The position numbers were made by a program, and so were the translations under genes. The notes beneath the pieces were generated by a model. It did no database searches. It was given only the letters and a program-made list of their open reading frames with translations, and was not told where the DNA came from. From Octopus vulgaris (lineage: Eukaryota), in NCBI GenBank assembly GCA_951406725.2, contig OX597814.1:94612001-94676000 (forward strand): a DNA stretch of 64,000 nucleotides, read 5' to 3'. The stretch's first letter is position 1, and each line of letters opens with the position of its first letter. This document shows positions 513 to 56,189 of this stretch, piece after piece.

Positions 513-1838
513 GTACTAAAAGCAAAACCTATCAAAAGGATAGATGGACCAAGTGTAGGTTCAAGCAATAGCACGTGCCCTCAGAAATTCTGGGTTAGTG
601 TCCGACGTGCTGGAAGACCACTGTGTGAGACAGCCCTTAGCTTCAGTTAAAGCATGCCTTTGAGAGAAGTTCACACTGATATAAGACCAGATATGTAGGG
701 AATGGCTTTGGACATTTGAGGGGGTCTATTGCTTGTGCTTCAGAGCATGACAGACCTATATTGTCACGTGATATCTTCCTCTGGCGTATCTCTGGAAGGT
801 GTCAATAGGGTAGAGACGGTTTGTGAGGTTCTGATGAAGCTGCCCTATCAGATCTAAAATTTGAGATTGTGCAGTCACCGACCAGGCGAATATTTGATGC
901 CCAGTTGCATAGGAGAGCACCGCGGCGAGCTTGAAGCCGCAGACATGAACCTGGTTGAAGCCGATAGTTAGTGCAATAACTCAATGAGCGAGCATTGCAG
1001 GCATTTTGCATGGGCGAAGGTAAGTGACGGTCTTTCTCGGTCATCAACTATCATCACTATAGGTTTATATAAGACAAGCTTCAGCTCAGTATCCGTCTAC
1101 GAAAATTCCACTTTCAGATACTTCTCTACGTATCGCGTAAAGAGATAGCGTGCGAAACCACGTGTATTGTGTGTGTGTATATGTGTGTGCGTGTATGCGT
1201 GTGTGTATACATGCCTGTGTGTCTGTTTGATAGTTCTTTTATAATCAACAATGATTATTACGTCTTTATTCTTTATTTTATATGTGAACACATGCGAACG
1301 TCCGCGCATAGTCACATATACTTTCTCCTTTCTCCCTAGTCCTGCCTCTTTCTTTCATTCTATCTCTACCTTAATTTCTCTCTCTACTTCCAATTCTCTC
1401 TCACTCTCTCTCTTCCTATCTCTATCTCTCTCTCTCTCCCGTTTCATTTCTGTGTCTTTTCTTCCATTTCTTTCTATCTCCGTCTATCTACGCACATCCG
1501 TATGCACCAATACATATTTTCATGCACATGCATATATTCCATTATATCTGTGTATAGCTACAACTGACGACCCGATGACCTTTAACAATTCCGAAGTTGT
1601 TGAAACATCTCCACGTGTTCTGCTGACGTAGATATTGATCCGTTTCAAAGATTTTCATCAGATTAATGATAATAACCTTCTAATAAAGAACATTTAGAAC
1701 AATATAGTTTACTTACACGTAAATAAGTTCCCCTTTTGTCAGAAGACTACTTGACACTATTAATCATTCTAAAAGGCAATATAGAGTTTATAGAGCTGTA
1801 TATGCATCTATTCAGACAGATAGATAGATCGATAGATC

Positions 1839-6638: not shown

Positions 6639-7789
6639 TTTTTGAAGTCCAAATATTGAGATCAAGTGAGGTTCTTGTTATTTTTATTTTATTTTCAGAA
6701 GAATACAAGAATTCACCACTGATGGTCTTTATTCATGCCGAAACGGACACCGTAACATATGTGGAAGTAATCATTATGCTATAGCTGCATTTAATTTACA
6801 CTTAAATGAAGTACCAGTGAAACACTGGGGTCGAAGTAATCGACTAGTCTCCTCCCTCAAAATTTCAGGCCTTGTGCCCTAAGTAGAAAGGATTATTCAG
6901 AGGGGACAACAGAAGAACTTGGGTACTTGCTTAAGAATTGCTCAAGACTATACCTCTTTCTGTCAGTGATGGAAAATTGGATTTTAACTCAGAACTCACA
7001 GAATTGAAACAGCTAACTAAAATCTTCTTGTTCGATGTTTTAATATTTCATCAATTCGCAACCTCCGACCGGTACTTTATTTATCGACTCTAAAAGGATA
7101 AAAGATGAGGGAGAAAAAGAGGGAATTTGAACTCAGAATGCAGTGAACAGGAAGGAATGCCAGTGAGACATCATACGATATAAGAATGGAATGTTCATCT
7201 GCAATAGTTTAGAAAATATTTCGATAAGTGTACTGCATGAAAGTATCTTCCAAACTTATGTGCTTGTGTATGTGTGTGTGAGTATAAGAGGCATACAGAG
7301 GGAGAGTTCGAAAGAGAGGAGTAATTGGCAGAATAAGAAGTGAAATAAAATACCTTAGAGTATAGATTTCGTTAAGTTATGCAAAAACAATCAACGGAGA
7401 ACACGTGTGTGCTAATGTAAAATTTATTTTGTTTCATTAGGTTATACACCGTGAAGGCGAGAGAGATCAGCCGCCTCGTGCTTCGGAGTCTCCTTCACTG
7501 CTGACCAGTTCACTAGCTAGCCTTTCAGTGAAGTTTCTGTCTACAGTTCGTCTGTTATAAGTTCATGGGCAGTGCCCTACAAGGGCATCGTTTCCTAGTC
7601 TCTAACGTCTGTATCCCACGTATCCCAGCGAGTACAGCTAGTTTTGCAGGAAATTATGATCATAATTATTTCCAATATAGGTAAATGGCCTGAATTGCTA
7701 AAAAGGTTATTCGAGTAAGTTGATCATAGTATCTGACCCTTTACTTTATTTTTACCTTCTAAGGTAGAGTTACCTTCTTGAGTCATATC

Positions 7790-11339: not shown

Positions 11340-13690
11340 TAGCCCTGGGTCTAACAAGTCAGAAAATTGATGTTGCCAGCGAACAAAATCTGGGATAGAA
11401 GATACCCACCAATGGACTTTTTGACCAAGCCCATTTTCACAACTGGAAGCAGAAAATTAGGGCTATGTAAAATTCAAACAGCTGTAACTTTGCAACTCTT
11501 CGCTAAAATATTTCAAATGACCACCTGCAATGATTGCCTGATCAAGATCTACAAATTCATGCAAACGATAAGGAAATTTATTCTGTAAAAAGGTGACCAG
11601 GGGTCAAAAGGTCACGAAATTTGACCTTCATCTATAATATCTTGCATTCATAGGTTTTATTCATCACCAAGACCCTATAACGTTTTTCTTTATTGAAAAT
11701 TATTCAAAAGGAAGGCTTACATGTGCTTTTTACTACCAGAAGTAAAAGAAAATTGAAAAAAGTACTGTTTACTCAGTGGAATGTGAGATATTTCTGCTCC
11801 TTTACATACTGTTTTGTACGTATTGGTGAATGTGTCGAAGTAAGGCAAAATCTAACAAGTGGCACTTTGGAATCTTTCCTTGAATCATTGCAAATGACAA
11901 CAAAAGATGATAATTGAGTTGATCTATAAAATGAGAATCAAATTATGCAAAGGGATTGTTGAAGTCAAAAGTAAACAAAAGTTGACCCTACCTACACCAT
12001 AGCAGTTTGTTGTGCATGGTCGTTATGACATCAAAGATGGACAAAGTCATATAAAGAACGAGCTAAATTCCTTCAGGCTACATTTTTTCAAGCGGGAATG
12101 TCTGATGAATAAGACAAAGGCGTGCAACATCGGGATGTTCGCCCTTGTGAAATTACTACCAGCGAGAAACTTGTCTCATGGACCATTGCAGATGTCAGAT
12201 GCTTCAACAACCCTTTCAGCATCTCAGGTGATGGAAAGTTGTACAATCTATCATCTGGCGCTCTGGCTTCAGAAGAAGTTGTGAAGGACGTCCTCACTGC
12301 TGAGATTGTTGGTAGGCTAGCAAAGGAAGAATTCATAGAAAACAGACTAATGAAGAAGGATGGCTTCTTTGATCCGATTAAACGCCCAAATTTAAAAACC
12401 GTAGCACACATGAACCAGTCCGGGAAATTCTCAACGTTTCTAAACAATGATAGTCGAGTACAAGCAGCAGGGAAACAGCGTTTCACTTACTAGTGAAGTC
12501 TCACGCACAGATTGATCGCAGACTTGCCCATGACAAACTGTTGACATACCCATTGACGCCTGTTCCATACAGCATTGGATTGGTAGATGGATTTCTTGCA
12601 AAAACAGACAAATCGAAAGGCTTCAAACATGTTCTGAAACACTGTGATGATGCACAGTTACCTGATCCAAGACAGAGCTTCATCATAGAGGATGGAAGTG
12701 CAGTGTTTCTTTGCTTGCTTGAGATTCCACAAATATTCGGAGAAATATCTCGTAAGGTGCTGGAATCTGCTCTTCAACTGTCGCCTATCATATTTAGCAC
12801 TGACATGTACAATTACAAGGAAGACTCTGTAAAAGGGGTGGAACGAAACAGATGAGGTGTTGGAGACAAACTCATCCTGAGTGATGAGAAAACAAATCGT
12901 CCGAAAGACTGGAAATATTTTCTTGCAAATGAAAACAAGACACAGTTCATTCAGCATCTGTTCTCAACTTGGAGGAGTGAGGTGTCTTCCGACATTCTCA
13001 CTGCACATGAGATGGTAATGATATGTGAAGGAAAAGCTTACAGTTGACATCGGATAGACATAACATTTTCTCTCTCTAATCTTCACAGGAAGAAACTGAC
13101 ACTCTTATAATCCTGTATTGCATGTTTGCCGAATAACGATGATGCAAATCCAATCGTGTGAAGAATCCTGATTCAGACATTTTTGAACTAGATTACTGGA
13201 AATACCTCAAATTCTGTTTGAAACTGGAAAGGGTAACATACGACGCTGTATCGATGTGACCAAGCTGGCTATATCTTTCACACGTGTTCTCTATTCTGTA
13301 TTGCTGGGTTATCATACCTTCATCGGGTGCGATAGTACCAGTGCCTTCAAAAGGAAGGGGAAATTGAAGGGACTGAAAGACGTTGAAACCGATGAATCAT
13401 TCCAGAGAGCGTTCTCCAAATTAGGGGTGCCTTGGGAAGTCGACGAGGAGGTGATGAATGAACTGGAGTGGTTCACATGTGTGCTGTATGGTAAGAAAAG
13501 GACAAAAATGGTGAATACATTGCGGTCCATAACCTTGCAAGCAAAGTGCGATGGGAAGGAAAATTTCACAAAATCTAAGCAATTCGATCTTGCTTCACTG
13601 CCCCCATGTAGAAACGTTCTCGAGCAACATGTTCGGCGAAGCAACTTCCAGACCAGGACATGCAAGATCGCGAAAATTGCAAAGCCAGCG
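11340..13690 (+). mobile_element. Decayed, internally deleted AcademX-like DNA transposon (XPG/FEN1-like nuclease region)
   Basis: Interrupted reading frame from about 12030 to 13690 with NPF...LYNLSSG...FFDPIKR, LLTYPLTPVP, PKDWKYFLANENK, QEETDTLIILY, PDSDIF, GCDSTSAFKRKGK (H3TH motif) and LPPC...LEQHVRRSNFQ; candidate TAG terminus at 11340; 3' end cut by a SINE; the Academ assignment rests on the known XPG domain of AcademX. Confidence 0.7.
12030..13690 (+). pseudogene. Transposon-encoded XPG/FEN1-family nuclease pseudogene
   Basis: ORFs 12122-12493, 12493-12855 and 13256-13720 plus readable intervening frames, joined across several stop codons and frameshifts. Confidence 0.8.
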
Positions 13691-15082
13691 TCTCCACGTT
13701 CGTCCGTCTTCACGTTCTGAGTTCAAATACCGCCGACGTCGACTTTGTCTTTCATCCATTCGGGGTCGATAAATTAAATACCAGTGTAACCCTGAGGTTG
13801 ATGTAATCAACTAGTGCCCTCCCGCTAAATTTCAGGCCTTGTAGCTATAGTAGAAAGAATTATTCTGCTTAGCTATAAAAACAGCAATAATCAATTGTTA
13901 GAACTCAATATAATTATAATTAACAATAAGGGGGGCGAGCAGACAGGTCCGAGTTCAATTTCAGGATCGATAAAATGAGAACCTGTTGAGCACGATGTAT
14001 TCGATTTACTCCCACTCCCGAAATTGCTGGCCTTGAGCCAAAATTTGAAAGCAATATGCTTATAATTCACAGTATTACTAAGATCTGACAGCCAGGAGGT
14101 TATAAAATGTCACTCCCTCACTCAACTCTGGGCTCGCAGTTTCTCAATTGCATTAAGCTTCGGTAAACTAATTAACATGATTACATAATTCCTGTTCCTA
14201 AATTAAATGATTACATAACTCCTGTTCCTATGTAATTTATTTATTATTTAATATAATTATATATATGTATGTGCGTGTGTATGAGATCGTATATGTGTGT
14301 GTGTCGGCGTGCCTGAGTGTGTGTATGTGTGTGTGCGTGTGTGGATGTGCGTGTGCATGTGAGTGTGCGTGTGCGTGTGTGTGTGTGTGGTGTGTGTGTG
14401 TGTGTGTGTGTGTGTGTGGTTCTCTATGACTGCATTTATGCACTTTCATGCGTATAGTTTTGTATCTATAAATATGTATTTTTATCCGTTCTGCTTGTTC
14501 GAAAAATATAAATGCCTTCCCTTTTTTTTTTTAATTAGTAATTACATATAGAGCTGCGTACATGAAATGAAATCATATCAGCAAAATTGTAAATGATCTT
14601 TATATGTTTGACCACAGCACCTCAAAACATCCCATTTTATTTATATTTGACTTTTAGATACAGCTATGTTACACACATAGGTCACAAAAAGCGTTGTTAG
14701 ATACACAGATATAAGTGTATGGATTAGAGATATTGCCACTTGGGAAACGACATATTTTACTGATAATTAGACGAGGCATCACAGAGAATATATTGACTAA
14801 CTGCAAGTTATGAATCAGCATAGAAAAGAAGAGCAAAAAAAAATAGTCGTCTTTCCCAATATTTAATAGAAAATACTTATTGGTGTCAAGAAAGACCTAT
14901 AATGAAAGAGACTGCCTGATCAATAATTCAATATCTACATAGATAATTACATGATTTGATAAATATAAAGACACATAGTGTACGTATGGATGCATATAAA
15001 TGAATATGTATGTATTTATGTACATACACCTATATATACATATATATATAACTATGTATATATACATACGCACACACACACA

Positions 15083-27936: not shown

Positions 27937-28338
27937 TATATAAGACTGTATTAAAATATGATAGTCTGCAGATAGTTGTTCAGGAATATTGGAAAGTAAT
28001 ATATCTAGATATCCTTTCCATGACTCAGCAAAGTCTGTCATCAGGTACATTGGGCCATTTTGTTGTACCATAGTTAAATATTTGATGCATTTGACAAGTA
28101 AATACGAAGAGGAAAGTTTAAGAATCTGACATTTCTCCTATTCGCTATTAATTGTAATACCAAAGATCAAAGTCACTCTTTTATGTGTTCTCCAATTATT
28201 TGGCAGCCTTCACGCTGGTTTTCCATAAAGTAGAGGAATAGTGTGACAACGCTTTTCCAGCACGACCGTCTCTCGATTTTATTGTTTGATTCTAAAAGAG
28301 AATTTTGGAGGTAATTAAGACCTTGGCTAACAAGAAAC

Positions 28339-32185: not shown

Positions 32186-32195
<10 letters not shown>

Positions 32196-32450
32196 TAAAT
32201 TAGAGACAAAACCACTATTATGCAAATCAAACAAAGAAAGACTTAAGCCAATACATAAATAATTTATATAAATTAAATTTAATTAAAATTATTTTACGTA
32301 TTGGCTTAAGTCTTTCTTTGTTTGATTTGCATAATAGTGGTTTTGTCTCTAATTTAATATAATATAATATTTTACTATAAAATTGGATTCAATCCTAAAT
32401 CTGATTTTTCCCTGTAAATTTGGATTTATTCCCTAATATTTATTATTATT
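32186..32450. mobile_element. Fold-back insertion in (TA)n: perfect 69-bp arms plus a one-sided extension
   Basis: 32186-32254 is the exact reverse complement of 32298-32366; (TA)n on both sides. Confidence 0.8.
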
Positions 32451-34254: not shown

Positions 34255-35821
34255 TAGTTTTATTTTTATAGCGTGCTTTCACTTCACTACCGAGCGCAGC
34301 TCTGTGTGCCTTAGGTATGTGCTGTGATTTGTTGTGATGCTCTGATGGTTATTGTATGGAAAGTGTTCTGCGTAGGATGTGTGCAGTGCCTAGTAGTGCA
34401 ATTTTCTGTATGTTATATGTGTTTGTAAGTCCTGGTGTTTTTGTTATGTATTTATCTGAATATTTTTTTATCATGCCTAATGCACCTACTATGATAGGAA
34501 TTGTTTCTGTTTTTAGATTCCACATTCTGGTTACCTCTATTTCCAGGTCTTTGTATTTTGAAAGTTTCTCCAATACTTTTAGAGACACGTTGTCATCTGC
34601 CGGTATTGATACATCAATTAGAAAGCATTTTTTTCTTCATGATCTCTGACAACTATATCTGGTCTGTTGGCCTTAATTTCTCTATCTGTGTGTATCGGCA
34701 TATCCCAGAGTATGGTTGCTTTCTCGTTTTCTGTGACCTTTTCTGGTGTGTGCCTATACCATATTTTTTCTGTTGTTATTCCATAATGTTGGCATAGCTT
34801 CCAGTGTATGTAGGTTCCGACTCTATCATGTCTGTGAATATATTCCTTCTTAGCCAGGACTGGGCAGCTAGAGATAATATGATTTATTGTTTCTTGTCCA
34901 TCTCCACATATTCTGCAGTTACTTGTTATATTTCTTTTCATTACATGTTTTTGGTGGGGAGGCTTTGGTCTTGTGCTGCATTTAAAAATCCCTCCGTCTC
35001 TGCTTTGAGTCCTGAGCTTCTCAACCATTGCTGGGATTTTTCTTTGTCTATTTCTTTTGCGTTTAGTTTAGTCCAGTATTTACCATGAAGGGACTTTTCT
35101 TGCCATCGTTTTATCATGGTTCGTTGCTGTTCTATTTTTAGTTTGGATTTCATTTGTGTTATAGCTTTTGTTGTTCTTTATCTTCTTCTTCTTCTTCTTC
35201 TTCTTCTTCTTCTTCTTCTTCTTCTTCTTCTTCTTCTTCTTCTTCTTCTTCTTCATTAGGTGGTATGATTTCTTGTTTGTATTTGTCAGCTTCCTTAAAT
35301 ACTGAGAACAGTTTTTTGTTTTGCTCGTGTTTTGCCGCTATTTTGGTCAGTTCATTTAGTGTCCAGTTAAGGATATTGTAGCTGTAACTTATAACTGGGA
35401 CAGCTAAAGTGTTAATATATATTATCTTGTTTTTAGCATTGAGCTCTGTTTTTAGTATTGATCTAACTCGTCTATAATATTCTTTTTTTATTTTCTCTTT
35501 CATGTGTGTGTGTTGTGTCTTATCTAGTTCATGGATTCCGAAGTACTTGTAAGTTTGGCTTTGGTCTAATTCTTTTATTTCATTGGTTTTATCTAGTGTG
35601 ATATTGCTACTCTTAACTAGTTTTCCTCTTTTCATGGTTACTTTGGCGCATTTTTCTAATCCAAATTTCATATCTATTTCTTTGGTAAATCCATGAACTG
35701 TATTTAATAGTGTTTCCAGCTGTTTGTCATTTGCAGCGTATAGTTTTAGGTCATCCATATATAAAAGGTGGCTGATCGTTTTGCCGTAACATTTATATCC
35801 GCATCCAGTTCTATTTAGCAT
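34252..35821 (-). mobile_element. 5'-truncated R4/Dong-clade non-LTR retrotransposon (RT C-terminus, CCHC knuckle, restriction-like endonuclease)
   Basis: ISHLLYMDDLKLYA, CRICGDGQETINHIISSC, RHDRV, NRPDIVV, KLSKYKDL; frameshifted; 3' UTR followed by (TAA)n; (TAA)n also at the 5' junction. Confidence 0.92.
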
Positions 35822-36018
<197 letters not shown>

Positions 36019-37590
36019 TTATCGTTTGACTTCTAAAAACGTACGGTCTCGTTTGTTCTGGTAGATTATGGGAGAGCGGACAGCAGACTGCTAACAGAGG
36101 TGTCACAGGGTCCCTTTCTGCACGTTATAAGCTTTGATACTTGGTTGTGAATAATCGTGGGAGACATTCAGCAGACAATTACCAATCTGAAAATCCTAGC
36201 TGTCCCCAACAGACCAGTTTTTTGGGGCATGCTCTGGTCTCATGTCAATTCTGATTTCTTTGACATATTTCTTGAACTTGGTTGTTAGTGCTCCGAGTGC
36301 CTCTACAACAACTGGTATGACAGACATTCTCCGTATAGTCCACATTCTTGCAATTTCGTCTTTTAGTAGTCTGTACTTTTCAATCTTTTCTAGTTCTTTG
36401 TCACTTATACATGTATCTATGATCTTGGTTTCTCTTTTTCCATCAACTACCACAACAATATCTGGTTGCATTGGCTTCTAAAAGCCCACAGTATCTTATG
36501 TTCCTTGTTTTCGATGACTTCTATTTCATGATCGTACCATTTCTGTACTCTGTTCAGGCCGTACTCCAGTGGACGAAGTTAGCCACGTTATCGTGCCTCC
36601 TTTTGTACTGTTTTTGAGCCAGCTTGTTACACTCACTCACAATATGTGAGATTGTTTCGTTTCTGCTGCCGCACGTCCTACAAAGAGGCGATTAGTTACT
36701 CTTATCGATTTAGAACTTGATGTAATTATTTCTCAGAGCTTGTTCCTGAGCGCTGCATATCAGTGTCTCAGTGCATTCTTTCAGATCACTTTTTCTTAGC
36801 CATCTCCAAATGTTGATCTTGTCTTTTCCTCGATTTCTCTGAATTATTACCCATGCAGTGGCTTCATTTTCCAGCTGTTTACTCTTTCTTCTTCATCTTG
36901 TTTCTTAAATATTTGTGGGAGCATCACATATTCGGTATGTTTTATACTGTTAATTCTAACAGCGGCAAACAAGGATTCACTCTGCTGTTTGATATACGAT
37001 CCCAGACTGTTCTTCTCGTTGACAACACAGTTCTTGCATCCAATGAGATCGCTTCCAACCCTGTTTCTAGGCATATACAGTCTATCAGTATCTCTTTTGA
37101 GGTATAGTTCCTTGTTAATTGTCATCACGTTTCTAGCTTTCTTATTCATTTCTTCAAGCTCGACTTTGTCCACCTAATAACACCTGCGCCGTATCGCATT
37201 AAGGAAATAGCCCATGTACTTATTGCTCTGATTTTGCTTTTTGTTTTCGTTGAGTCTAGTTCCCATAATTAACCCGCTGCTTCTGAGATATTCTCGCCTA
37301 AAGCTTTCTTTCATTTCACTTTCGTTGACTTTGTCGTATTCTAAAATCCCCAAATATTGATATCCATTAGTCTCAATATCCTTGATTTTCTCGGCATTGG
37401 GTAGCTCTACACCATCAGACGACACTACTTTGCTTCTTTGTATTATAAGCATACCTAACGTTTTGGTCCCAAATTCCATTCCGATATCCTTACCGAATAT
37501 CTGCACTGTTGAAACTAGACCATATATTTCACTTCCGATCTTTCCAAAGATCTTTATATCATCCATATATAACAGATAATTTAATTTTCC
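36019..37590 (-). mobile_element. Older 5'-truncated R4/Dong-clade LINE of a different family
   Basis: LNYLLYMDDIKIFGK, YQYLGILE, DRLYMPR, KPLHG, CRTCGSRNETISHIVSEC, RHD, QPDIVVVD, KIEKY; multiple stops and frameshifts. Confidence 0.9.
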
Positions 37591-38042
37591 TCCATAGAAT
37601 TAAAGAAAACACTTGCTCGAGATGCAATGCAGTGGAATTGAACCCGAAATTATGTAGTTGAGAGGTAATTGTTATATATTTCGAAATATCTTTTACACTA
37701 CGGAAGGTTTTGAATCATTGCATTATATTTTTGTAATTTTATAATATATATAACAATAGTTCTTCGAAAATATATCTTTCGCGAAATGTCCTTTCGCTAA
37801 CGTTTTTAGTGAATATTCCTTGTCTCGTATGCATGTATATAAGCATGTGTGTGTATGTGTGCATATGTATACTTGTATATGTATATATAAATACATATAC
37901 ACATATGCATATGTATATATGTATACACACACAAACACACACATATATATATAAATATATATACATATATATATATACACAATATATATATATATATATA
38001 AATATACATATATATATATATATTTATTTATTTATATTTATA

Positions 38043-50179: not shown

Positions 50180-51055
50180 TGGGTGTCCATAAAGTCTCTT
50201 TACAATTTTAAAATTTTATTACAAACGCAGTTGACAAGATATCTTAACCAGATTTATTTTATTGTAATAACTGCTTATTAAAGTTTTTTTAACTGTTATT
50301 TAATAGACCTCAATATGAGCACCATTAGTTGCGCGAAGCACATCAAGACTGTACTCGATTTCTTGCCATGTTCGTTGTAGGATAGCCACATCAGTGGTGG
50401 CAATGGCATTACGAATCCTTTGCTTCAAGTCAGCAATGTCCTGTGTCTTTGTTTGATACACGATATCTTTTACATACCCCCATAAAAAGAAGTCCAAGGG
50501 AGTGATATCTGGCGAATGCGATGTCCATGGAATTGGCCCATCCTTTCCAATCCATCGGTCTGGAAATGTTTGATTGAGGAACTGACGAATGTGCCGTCCC
50601 GAATGTATGATGACTGGCTGTAAATCAATCAGTTGTGGTGCCACATATTCGGTCAGATGTTCGAGGTAAACATCTGCAGTAATTGTTGCCTCGTTGACGA
50701 AAAATGGACCAATTATTTGATTGCACATGATTCCACACCACACATTCACTTTTGGACTATCCCGTTGAAGCACCCTAGTCACATGGGGGTGTTCTGATCC
50801 CCAGATTCTCACAATGTGTTTGTTTAATTTCCCTGAAACATGAAAAGTCGCCTCGTCACTAAAACAAACTCGCTTGAAGAATGCTTCATCCTCATTCTAT
50901 AGGGGTTCAGTAAATCAGTTCCCTTCCATCAACAGAGTATCTGAAACACAAAACTTTAATAAACAATTATTAAAATACAACAAATCTGGCTAAAATATCT
51001 CATCAACTGCCTTTGTAATAATTTTTTAAAATTGTAACGAAACTTTAAGGACATC

Positions 51056-51058: not shown

Positions 51059-51090
<32 letters not shown>

Positions 51091-51091
<1 letters not shown>

Positions 51092-51142
51092 CAAAATCTG
51101 TTACTCTGAGTTTCTCGTTGCCGTTCATCAGACAGTTTTTGC
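51091..51142 (-). ncRNA. Type I hammerhead ribozyme (Penelope-like)
   Basis: Minus strand GCAAAAACUGU-CUGAUGA-ACG GCAA CGA-GAAA-CUCAGA-GUA-ACAGAUUUUGU: complete core, helices I to III and a GUA cleavage triplet. Confidence 0.75.
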
Positions 51143-51186
51143 TAGAATGGAACTGATATATCAATTGATATATCAGTTCCATTCTA
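51143..51186. repeat. Perfect 44-bp palindrome
   Basis: TAGAATGGAACTGATATATCAA|TTGATATATCAGTTCCATTCTA. Confidence 0.95.
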
Positions 51187-51480
51187 TATATATATATATA
51201 TATAGACCCAGTTCGGTCATGAATGACCCTAGAAAATTCCCATCCAAGCCATAAGTTCGACCAAGATTGTTTTAATGGACGACCAACAGTCGTCCTTGCA
51301 CACCAGCTTTCCCTCTCCATGCCACCGATATTATCCAAGGGAAATGCAAAACCGATACAGCTTGCCACCATATCTGCTGCTGAATGAACTGGAACACATA
51401 CAGCCCGGTCCGGGATTGAACACACTACTTCATGATTGCGAGCCTTTATATACACATGTGGGTTGTTGTTGTTGTTGTTG

Positions 51481-56027: not shown

Positions 56028-56036
56028 TTCACTGCC

Positions 56037-56105
<69 letters not shown>

Positions 56106-56107
<2 letters not shown>

Positions 56108-56115
56108 TATTATTA

Positions 56116-56189
<74 letters not shown>

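What the first reader, a model, noticed from the sequence alone, without database searches (positions are those of the whole stretch)
51091..51186. Near-complete hammerhead ribozyme fused to a perfect palindrome, inserted in (TA)n
Seen: a 96-bp island between two (TA)n runs. On the minus strand it has CUGAUGA (51131-51125), helix II CG-GCAA-CG with a GNRA loop, GAAA (51114-51111), helix III ACU-CAG-AGU, a GUA triplet (predicted cut between 51102 and 51101) and helix I CUGU/ACAG extended by GCAAAA/UUUUGU after one mismatch. The 10.1-11.1 position is A.A instead of the usual G-C. Its 5' side is a perfect 44-bp palindrome. Established: minimal type I hammerheads lie in pseudo-LTRs of Penelope-like elements, some cleave as dimers, and Penelope insertions often carry an inverted 5' segment. 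Inference: this is a tiny, possibly still self-cleaving Penelope-type unit that would cut any minus-strand transcript crossing it.
Basis: partly seen in the sequence, partly recalled or inferred. Interest (0 to 1): 0.8.

Follow-up and report, generated by a model that had tools for sequence, protein, structure and literature searches.

The report
Penelope retroelement scrap carrying a hammerhead
This 96-base island is a worn-down scrap of the end of a very abundant jumping gene, and the hammerhead-ribozyme motif it carries is real but is predicted not to cut RNA on its own at this spot, so the island itself is ordinary.

Summary
The sequence features are as reported. The 52-nt hammerhead part is identical to the pseudo-LTR of a young Penelope-like retroelement family in this genome: 3,710 exact copies of the 32-nt core, and a 52/52 match in 20 of 20 loci picked for a long RT + GIY-YIG frame. 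Motifs RWK and DKT, no CCHH, and (TA)n targets place the family in the Hydra clade (Craig 2021), though its linker CxC reads CNF. The A·A junction is the fixed state of the youngest subfamily, not decay; older subfamilies have A-U, A·G or A·C and mostly C4. The 44-bp palindrome is not part of the element: it is the joint of an inverted insertion, centred on the element's own AATT (15 such loci; 213 centred on CTAG). This copy has lost both normal ends. Alone, the RNA is predicted to misfold; only a dimer gives the hammerhead fold. Cleavage was not shown. A by-product: 63 of 64 inverted insertions have exactly one long and one short end, which favours two separately primed cDNAs.

The parts
51091..51142 (-). 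Minimal type I hammerhead motif of the element's pseudo-LTR, with extended helix I
   Evidence: 52/52 identity in 20 of 20 ORF-bearing loci; 3,710 exact core copies
51125..51131 (-). Core C3-A9 (CUGAUGA); U4 and N7 differ between subfamilies
51115..51124 (-). A10.1·A11.1 mismatch around a 2-bp helix II with GCAA loop
51102..51114 (-). GAAA core, palindromic helix III ACUC-A-GAGU and GUA triplet; predicted cut between 51102 and 51101
51143..51166 (-). Native element sequence just 5' of the hammerhead (AATT to CTA)
   Evidence: 51166-51090 aligns to the full element at 96%
51163..51186 (+). Inverted second arm, sharing the central AATT (51163-51166); with the native arm it makes the 44-bp palindrome
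51059..51090 (.). (TA)16 target microsatellite, left
51187..51204 (.). (TA)n target microsatellite, right

Best explanation
The island is an eroded remnant of an inverted insertion of a Hydra-clade Penelope-like retroelement into a (TA)n repeat, and its hammerhead is likely silent at this locus. Shown: the 76 native bases are the element's pseudo-LTR; the palindrome is a junction centred on the element's own AATT; both normal ends are missing. Inferred mechanism: the element's GIY-YIG endonuclease cut both strands of (TA)n; the RT primed one cDNA from each end, at two start sites about 66-70 nt apart on uncut RNA; both stopped just past the ribozyme, annealed through the self-complementary AATT and were filled in, giving a head-to-head repeat; the outer parts were then lost or never fully copied. 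In the full element the ribozyme likely works slowly, as a dimer of two pseudo-LTRs in a tandem transcript or with help from the element's protein.
For: Identity and linkage; fold model of the ORF (pLDDT 91.8) has TERT as best Foldseek match, E 1.4e-9, TM 0.33. Joint is recurrent and variable: 15 loci centred on AATT, 213 on CTAG, many other joints; the full element has no palindrome there. Two ends: (loose ends at 7023 and 7087 of L066). One long plus one short end in 63 of 64 distinct short inverted insertions, none long-long or short-short (65 rows, L093 and L130 are one place), and in 11 of 11 kilobase-scale inversions whose two ends could be read. Zero-spacer joints at native self-complementary 4-mers fit annealing of two cDNA ends better than a hairpin. 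In vitro a PLE protein nicks and extends both strands from two RT start sites, uses uncut RNA, and its ribozyme needs the protein (PMC11167929). Template mostly uncut here: 14 of 18 5' breaks near the site lie upstream of it. Monomer misfolds, dimer is the hammerhead fold at -21.4 against 2 x -9.6 kcal/mol.
Against: No cleavage assay and no RNA ends could be examined. How the two outer ends were lost is not shown. The arms that share no sequence (L095, L140, L164) could also come from later deletion in a palindrome. PMC3846280 explains such palindromes by self-priming. 2 of 18 breaks start at the cut position, though helix I microhomology explains both. Pfam found nothing in the ORF and the PDB sequence search nothing; the GIY-YIG call rests on motifs and on homologs' Pfam labels.
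Confidence: 0.75

Rival explanations
1. Same origin, but the palindrome was made by one strand folding back and priming on itself, the short end being set by endonuclease resolution.
For: Proposed for Penelope palindromic junctions in PMC3846280 (passages); PMC8557442 ascribes the tail to EN-mediated resolution. Arms share private variants (L028, L145), and joints with a spacer such as L025 look like hairpin priming.
Against: Zero-spacer joints leave no loop; short ends also terminate insertions with no inverted arm (L065, L067, L074, L078, L080); three insertions have arms with no shared sequence.
Confidence: 0.3
2. This lone copy is an active ribozyme that cuts host minus-strand transcripts. 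It is unusual in that its antisense arm stops just short of the ribozyme and so does not mask it.
For: All 11 core bases and GUA are canonical; 2-bp helix II and a U·U 10.1·11.1 mismatch occur in natural hammerheads (PMC3088659); thousands of copies could supply a partner in trans; the motif stays unmasked in the fold of its 300-nt context.
Against: Predicted inhibitory CUGA/UCAG helix; dimer gain only 2.2 kcal/mol; no second copy in the 64 kb; flanks are other repeats; no host transcript shown; U·U is reported as the best-tolerated mismatch, so A·A should be worse.
Confidence: 0.1
3. The 96-bp island is itself a mobile non-autonomous unit (retrozyme- or MITE-like).
For: Small inverted derivatives are common (213 with one joint); a 2026 preprint links retrozymes to PLE pseudo-LTRs (10.64898/2026.07.22.740005, abstract to start of methods).
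Against: The window's left boundary occurs at 4 places genome-wide and only this one has this structure; similar eroded ends scatter over many positions; the CTAG joint recurs in different subfamilies; no tandem array.
Confidence: 0.04

Closest known systems
Hydra clade of C-terminal EN+ Penelope-like elements, e.g. Hydra-1_Obim, Hydra-2_Amil, Penelope-3_HM (Craig et al. 2021, PMC8557442)
   Same: Single ORF with RT then GIY-YIG, RWK and DKT motifs, CxxC and CxH near the C terminus, (TA)n target, 3' hammerhead with palindromic helix III. Hydra-2_Amil has the same helix I (ctgt/acag) and actc-N-gagt helix III; 15 of 26 listed Hydra hammerhead rows have a mismatch at 10.1·11.1 (my count).
   Different: A different family from Hydra-1_Obim (other DNA and other hammerhead; compared by eye). 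3' UTR about 1.1 kb, unit about 3.35 kb against <3 kb. Linker CNF instead of CxC in 41 of 41 reads. Helix II only 2 bp (3-7 in the published rows), mismatch A·A rather than U·U, and C4 in older subfamilies. Thousands of young copies.
Minimal hammerheads of metazoan PLEs (Cervera and de la Pena 2014, PMC4209133)
   Same: Type I, in pseudo-LTR, palindromic helix III, dimer architecture, dispersed truncated copies and pairs on opposite strands.
   Different: Lacks the conserved G10.1-C11.1 pair and the longer helix II described there.
Poseidon element PAc of Anolis (Frangieh et al. 2024, PMC11167929)
   Same: Two 3' ends separated by a tail, AT-rich target, uncut RNA used as template.
   Different: Tail here about 66-70 nt (30-40 elsewhere) and both ends lie upstream of the start codon, not inside the ORF; the one-long-one-short pairing is not stated in the half of that paper that I read.
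Penelope inverted pLTR junction palindromes of Adineta vaga (Arkhipova et al. 2013, PMC3846280)
   Same: 18-38 bp palindromes at head-to-head junctions; tail optional on one of the inverted pLTRs.
   Different: Few copies there, interpreted as self-priming; here hundreds of joints at self-complementary 4-mers.

Membership tests
Penelope-like element (EN+) | Single ORF with telomerase-like RT | tested here: met
   Open frames of 718-774 codons in 18 of 20 loci picked for long frames; best fold match TERT. Pfam and PDB sequence searches blank.
Penelope-like element (EN+) | C-terminal GIY-YIG endonuclease | tested here: met
   GVVY...YTG motif at the C terminus; homolog P0003 carries PF01541. No direct Pfam hit in P0001.
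Penelope-like element (EN+) | Pseudo-LTRs in partial tandems, inverted 5'-truncated copy, tail at one end | tested here: met
Hydra clade | RWK and DKT motifs | tested here: met
   LRWKAFFF and NSDKTRN in P0001; 117 and 118 of 120 homologs (relaxed to RW[KR], DK[TS])
Hydra clade | No CCHH motif; CxxC and CxH around the conserved E and N | tested here: met
   Read by eye: CRLC ... E ... N ... CRH
Hydra clade | CxCX5C linker | tested here: not met
   CNFKNESSC in 41 of 41 reads: second Cys is Phe; 118 of 120 homologs keep CxC. A derived loss within the clade is likely, since all close homologs have it.
Hydra clade | Insertion into (TA)n | tested here: met
Hydra clade | Groups with Hydra RTs in a tree | not tested
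   Published reference proteins were not available as tool sequences; only by-eye comparison with Hydra-1_Obim.
Hammerhead ribozyme | Eleven core bases, three helices, NUH triplet | tested here: met
   U4 is C in about 31 of the first 100 family copies listed (counted by eye)
Hammerhead ribozyme | G10.1-C11.1 pair | tested here: not met
   A·A here; A-U, A·G, A·C in other subfamilies
Hammerhead ribozyme | Compensatory changes in helices | tested here: inconclusive
   0 of 16 pairs with two-sided change, 95.8% of cells paired, 25 distinct close variants
Hammerhead ribozyme | Self-cleavage at the NUH site | not testable with these tools
   Needs an assay; no raw RNA reads were offered
Non-LTR retrozyme | Tandem repeats each with a complete type I hammerhead | tested here: not met
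   Single copy in the window; no tandem array

The most novel reading that the evidence does not exclude
The family's thousands of insertions record a twin-priming mechanism in vivo: a Penelope protein dimer primes one cDNA from each end of a double-strand break, always one from the near and one from the far start site, and the two cDNAs anneal at self-complementary 4-mers. The ribozyme is kept deliberately weak (C4 in older subfamilies, A·A and a self-blocking helix in the youngest) so that uncut RNA remains as template.
Probability: 0.4. Interest if true: 0.6.

Novelty: new member of a known kind. Interest (0 to 1): 0.3.

Why it matters
The island itself matters little: it is one broken copy among more than 7,000 hammerhead-bearing ends (3,710 plus 3,360 non-overlapping variants). 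The family is more useful. It is young, has intact frames, and offers a natural data set on an open question, how Penelope elements make inverted repeats with a tail at one end. It also offers a natural allelic series (U4/C4, four bases at 11.1) for testing how weak a PLE hammerhead can be, and whether it needs to cut at all.

Tried and rejected
Rfam scan: no hammerhead hit; only low-scoring microRNA matches to the palindrome and repeats, all far below gathering score. Pattern search of metagenome contigs: 0. Pfam on P0001: 0 families; PDB sequence search with alignment A1: 0. Sequencing runs: no RNA holder listed; only contigs could be laid, so expression, strand and ends are open. Test for 5' truncation at the predicted cut: 2 of 18 breaks among the first 30 of 2,462 matches (12 rows dropped as indels), both explicable by helix I microhomology; inconclusive. 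Covariation: none. Two other CTGATGA...GAAA sites in the window (1630-1661, 28001-28044) fail the helix descriptor. DNA-transposon/MITE reading rejected: the inverted arms belong to an RT element and the joint moves. A homodimer prediction for the protein did not run, so dimerisation is untested. Lunse et al. (RNA Biol 14:1499) is not held; only its title was seen in a reference list. Earlier scan notes: none.

Full report
Observation. The 96 bases consist of a 52-nt hammerhead motif (51142-51091, minus strand) and a 44-bp perfect palindrome (51143-51186) between two (TA) runs. Rfam does not score it as a hammerhead at E<=10, and the 52-mer is no more stable than its shuffles. A descriptor written afterwards finds only this site in the window and a site in 1 of 200 shuffles.

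What it belongs to. A DNA search of the own genome (2.80 Gb, 227 contigs; likely an octopus, inferred from size and repeat make-up, not shown) gave 75 matches from 40 of 533 candidates scored. Most are head-to-head repeats of about 270 bp in (TA)n. One is a 3.35-kb inversion holding the end of a GIY-YIG frame. That protein piece has 19,100 candidates, the 150 scored being 95-100% identical. I fetched 20 of these 150, chosen for long frames: all 20 hold the 52-nt motif at 52/52, on the strand of the ORF, about 1.0 kb after the stop codon and again about 165 nt before the start codon in tandem copies; 18 have open frames of 718-774 codons. The 32-nt core occurs exactly 3,710 times, control 0. 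The ORF model (pLDDT 91.8) matches telomerase RT best (E 1.4e-9, TM 0.33); Pfam and PDB sequence searches were blank. There are 1,738 homologs at E<=1e-20 among 7,999 scored, the best 120 being 43-58% identical.

Clade. Craig et al. 2021 (PMC8557442; outline, passages, section 11, supplement parts 1, 2 and 52) define Hydra elements by RWK, DKT, no CCHH, CxxC/CxH, a CxCX5C linker and (TA)n targets. All are met except the linker, which is CNF in 41 of 41 reads. They list Hydra-1_Obim from an octopus; by eye it shares protein motifs but is another family with another hammerhead. No tree was built. A 2026 repeat annotation of Octopus vulgaris (PMC13282606; first third read, term search) counts 30 recently active Penelope families and does not mention Hydra or hammerheads in its main text; its library and supplements were not seen and may already contain this family. 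Searches for this family's ribozyme in print found no description; most subscription papers are not covered.

The ribozyme. The A·A junction is fixed in the youngest subfamily. Another 3,360 copies have G, U or C at 11.1 (that pattern fixed most other positions). With only the flanks fixed (4,805 matches), about 31 of the first 100 listed have C4 (by eye). Among 188 held copies (a sample enriched for both best hits and variants) the recurrent changes fall at U4, N7, loop II, 11.1, the helix III centre, the helix I mismatch and the terminal G·U/A-U pair; contigs from four runs show three of them at 5% or more. Five of seven lie on positions that the hammerhead leaves free (hypergeometric p 0.001-0.005, classes chosen by me). 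But the 95 bases downstream are at least as conserved, U4 and N7 are CpG sites, and no pair covaries, so selection on catalysis is suggested, not shown. The type with C4, C7 and an A-U pair is the most diverged (5.7% against 0.6%), hence likely oldest. In print, 15 of 26 Hydra rows have a 10.1·11.1 mismatch, mostly U·U, and 2-bp helices II and U4C occur in nature, U4C with much lower activity in vitro (PMC3088659 passages). The monomer is predicted to pair CUGA with UCAG (0.94-0.98) and to adopt the hammerhead fold at about 1e-4; for two copies the double hammerhead is the minimum-energy fold, 2.2 kcal/mol better than two monomers. This matches PMC4209133 (parts 1-2 of 4 read): no monomer activity, low dimer activity. 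PMC11167929 (parts 1-2 of 4 read) found a PLE hammerhead to need the protein and uncut RNA to be the main template. Here too most cDNAs ran through the site: 14 of 18 breaks lie upstream of it, 2 downstream, and 2 at it with helix I microhomology.

The palindrome. The full element reads ...GATTGAATTGATATATCAGTTCC... with no palindrome. The palindrome is the joint of two inverted arms sharing the native AATT. This joint occurs at 15 loci, a CTAG joint at 213, and many others exist. Such junction palindromes are known for Penelope and were ascribed to self-priming (PMC3846280 passages). The family has two 3' ends about 66-70 nt apart. Of 64 distinct short inverted insertions that my script selected (both arms reaching the end region, joint within 60 bases), 63 have one long and one short end, one has a long and an intermediate end, none has two alike; 11 of 11 large inversions with both ends readable agree. 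The loci were not chosen by end type. With zero-spacer joints and three cases of arms without shared sequence, this favours two cDNAs primed from the two ends of one break (inferred; about 0.6 against 0.3 for fold-back). Later deletion within palindromes weakens the non-overlap argument, and joints with spacers fit either model.

This copy. It has neither end: the sense arm stops about 25 nt short of the short end and the inverted arm after 24 nt, both running into (TA)n. The same left boundary occurs 4 times in the genome, and similar short ends scatter over many positions (45 places in the first 100 rows of 252, some being internal deletions), roughly 1% of copies. It is thus a rare eroded or abortive insertion, flanked by a Tc1/mariner-like remnant (label from recalled motifs, no Pfam hit) and another repeat. 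No host transcript was established.

Verdict. Real hammerhead motif, known kind of element, one broken copy; likely silent alone. Interest 0.3, most of it from the family-level end-pairing rule and the natural ribozyme variants.

Noticed in passing
Family-wide; L002-L176: Inverted insertions have one long and one short end in 63 of 64 cases, never two alike.
   Followed up: partly
G000, pattern: 213 loci have a zero-spacer joint at CTAG exactly at the 5' foot of the ribozyme's extended helix I, in more than one subfamily: a stop or annealing hot spot for the RT.
   Followed up: partly
L066:3756-5939 (P0001, residues about 580-590): The endonuclease linker reads CNF where 118 of 120 homologs have CxC, yet the family is young and still targets (TA)n, which bears on the idea that this linker sets the target.
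   Followed up: partly
L117-L146: Older subfamilies have C4 in the core together with A-U, A·G or A·C at 10.1·11.1; U4 in the youngest creates a predicted self-blocking helix.
   Followed up: partly
organisms A-G: Runs labelled as seven different organisms hold about half to two thirds of the sampled words of the element's 3' part; could be sister species, mislabels or horizontal spread. Four were laid and do hold it.
   Followed up: partly
window 50300-50896 (-): Tc1/mariner-like transposase remnant just left of the island (label from recalled motifs; no Pfam hit).
   Followed up: partly
window 32186-32366: 83-bp inverted arms, 94% complementary, beside a (TA)n run; a different repeat whose sequence also flanks L002. 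The head-to-head form suggests another Penelope-like family.
   Followed up: no
window 56036-56189: (TAA)23 directly followed by (ATT)27, forming a perfect long palindrome.
   Followed up: no
window 34618-35821 (-), 37174-37599 (-), 12454-13720 (+): Fragments resembling non-LTR reverse transcriptase frames and a transposon-like frame (by eye).
   Followed up: no
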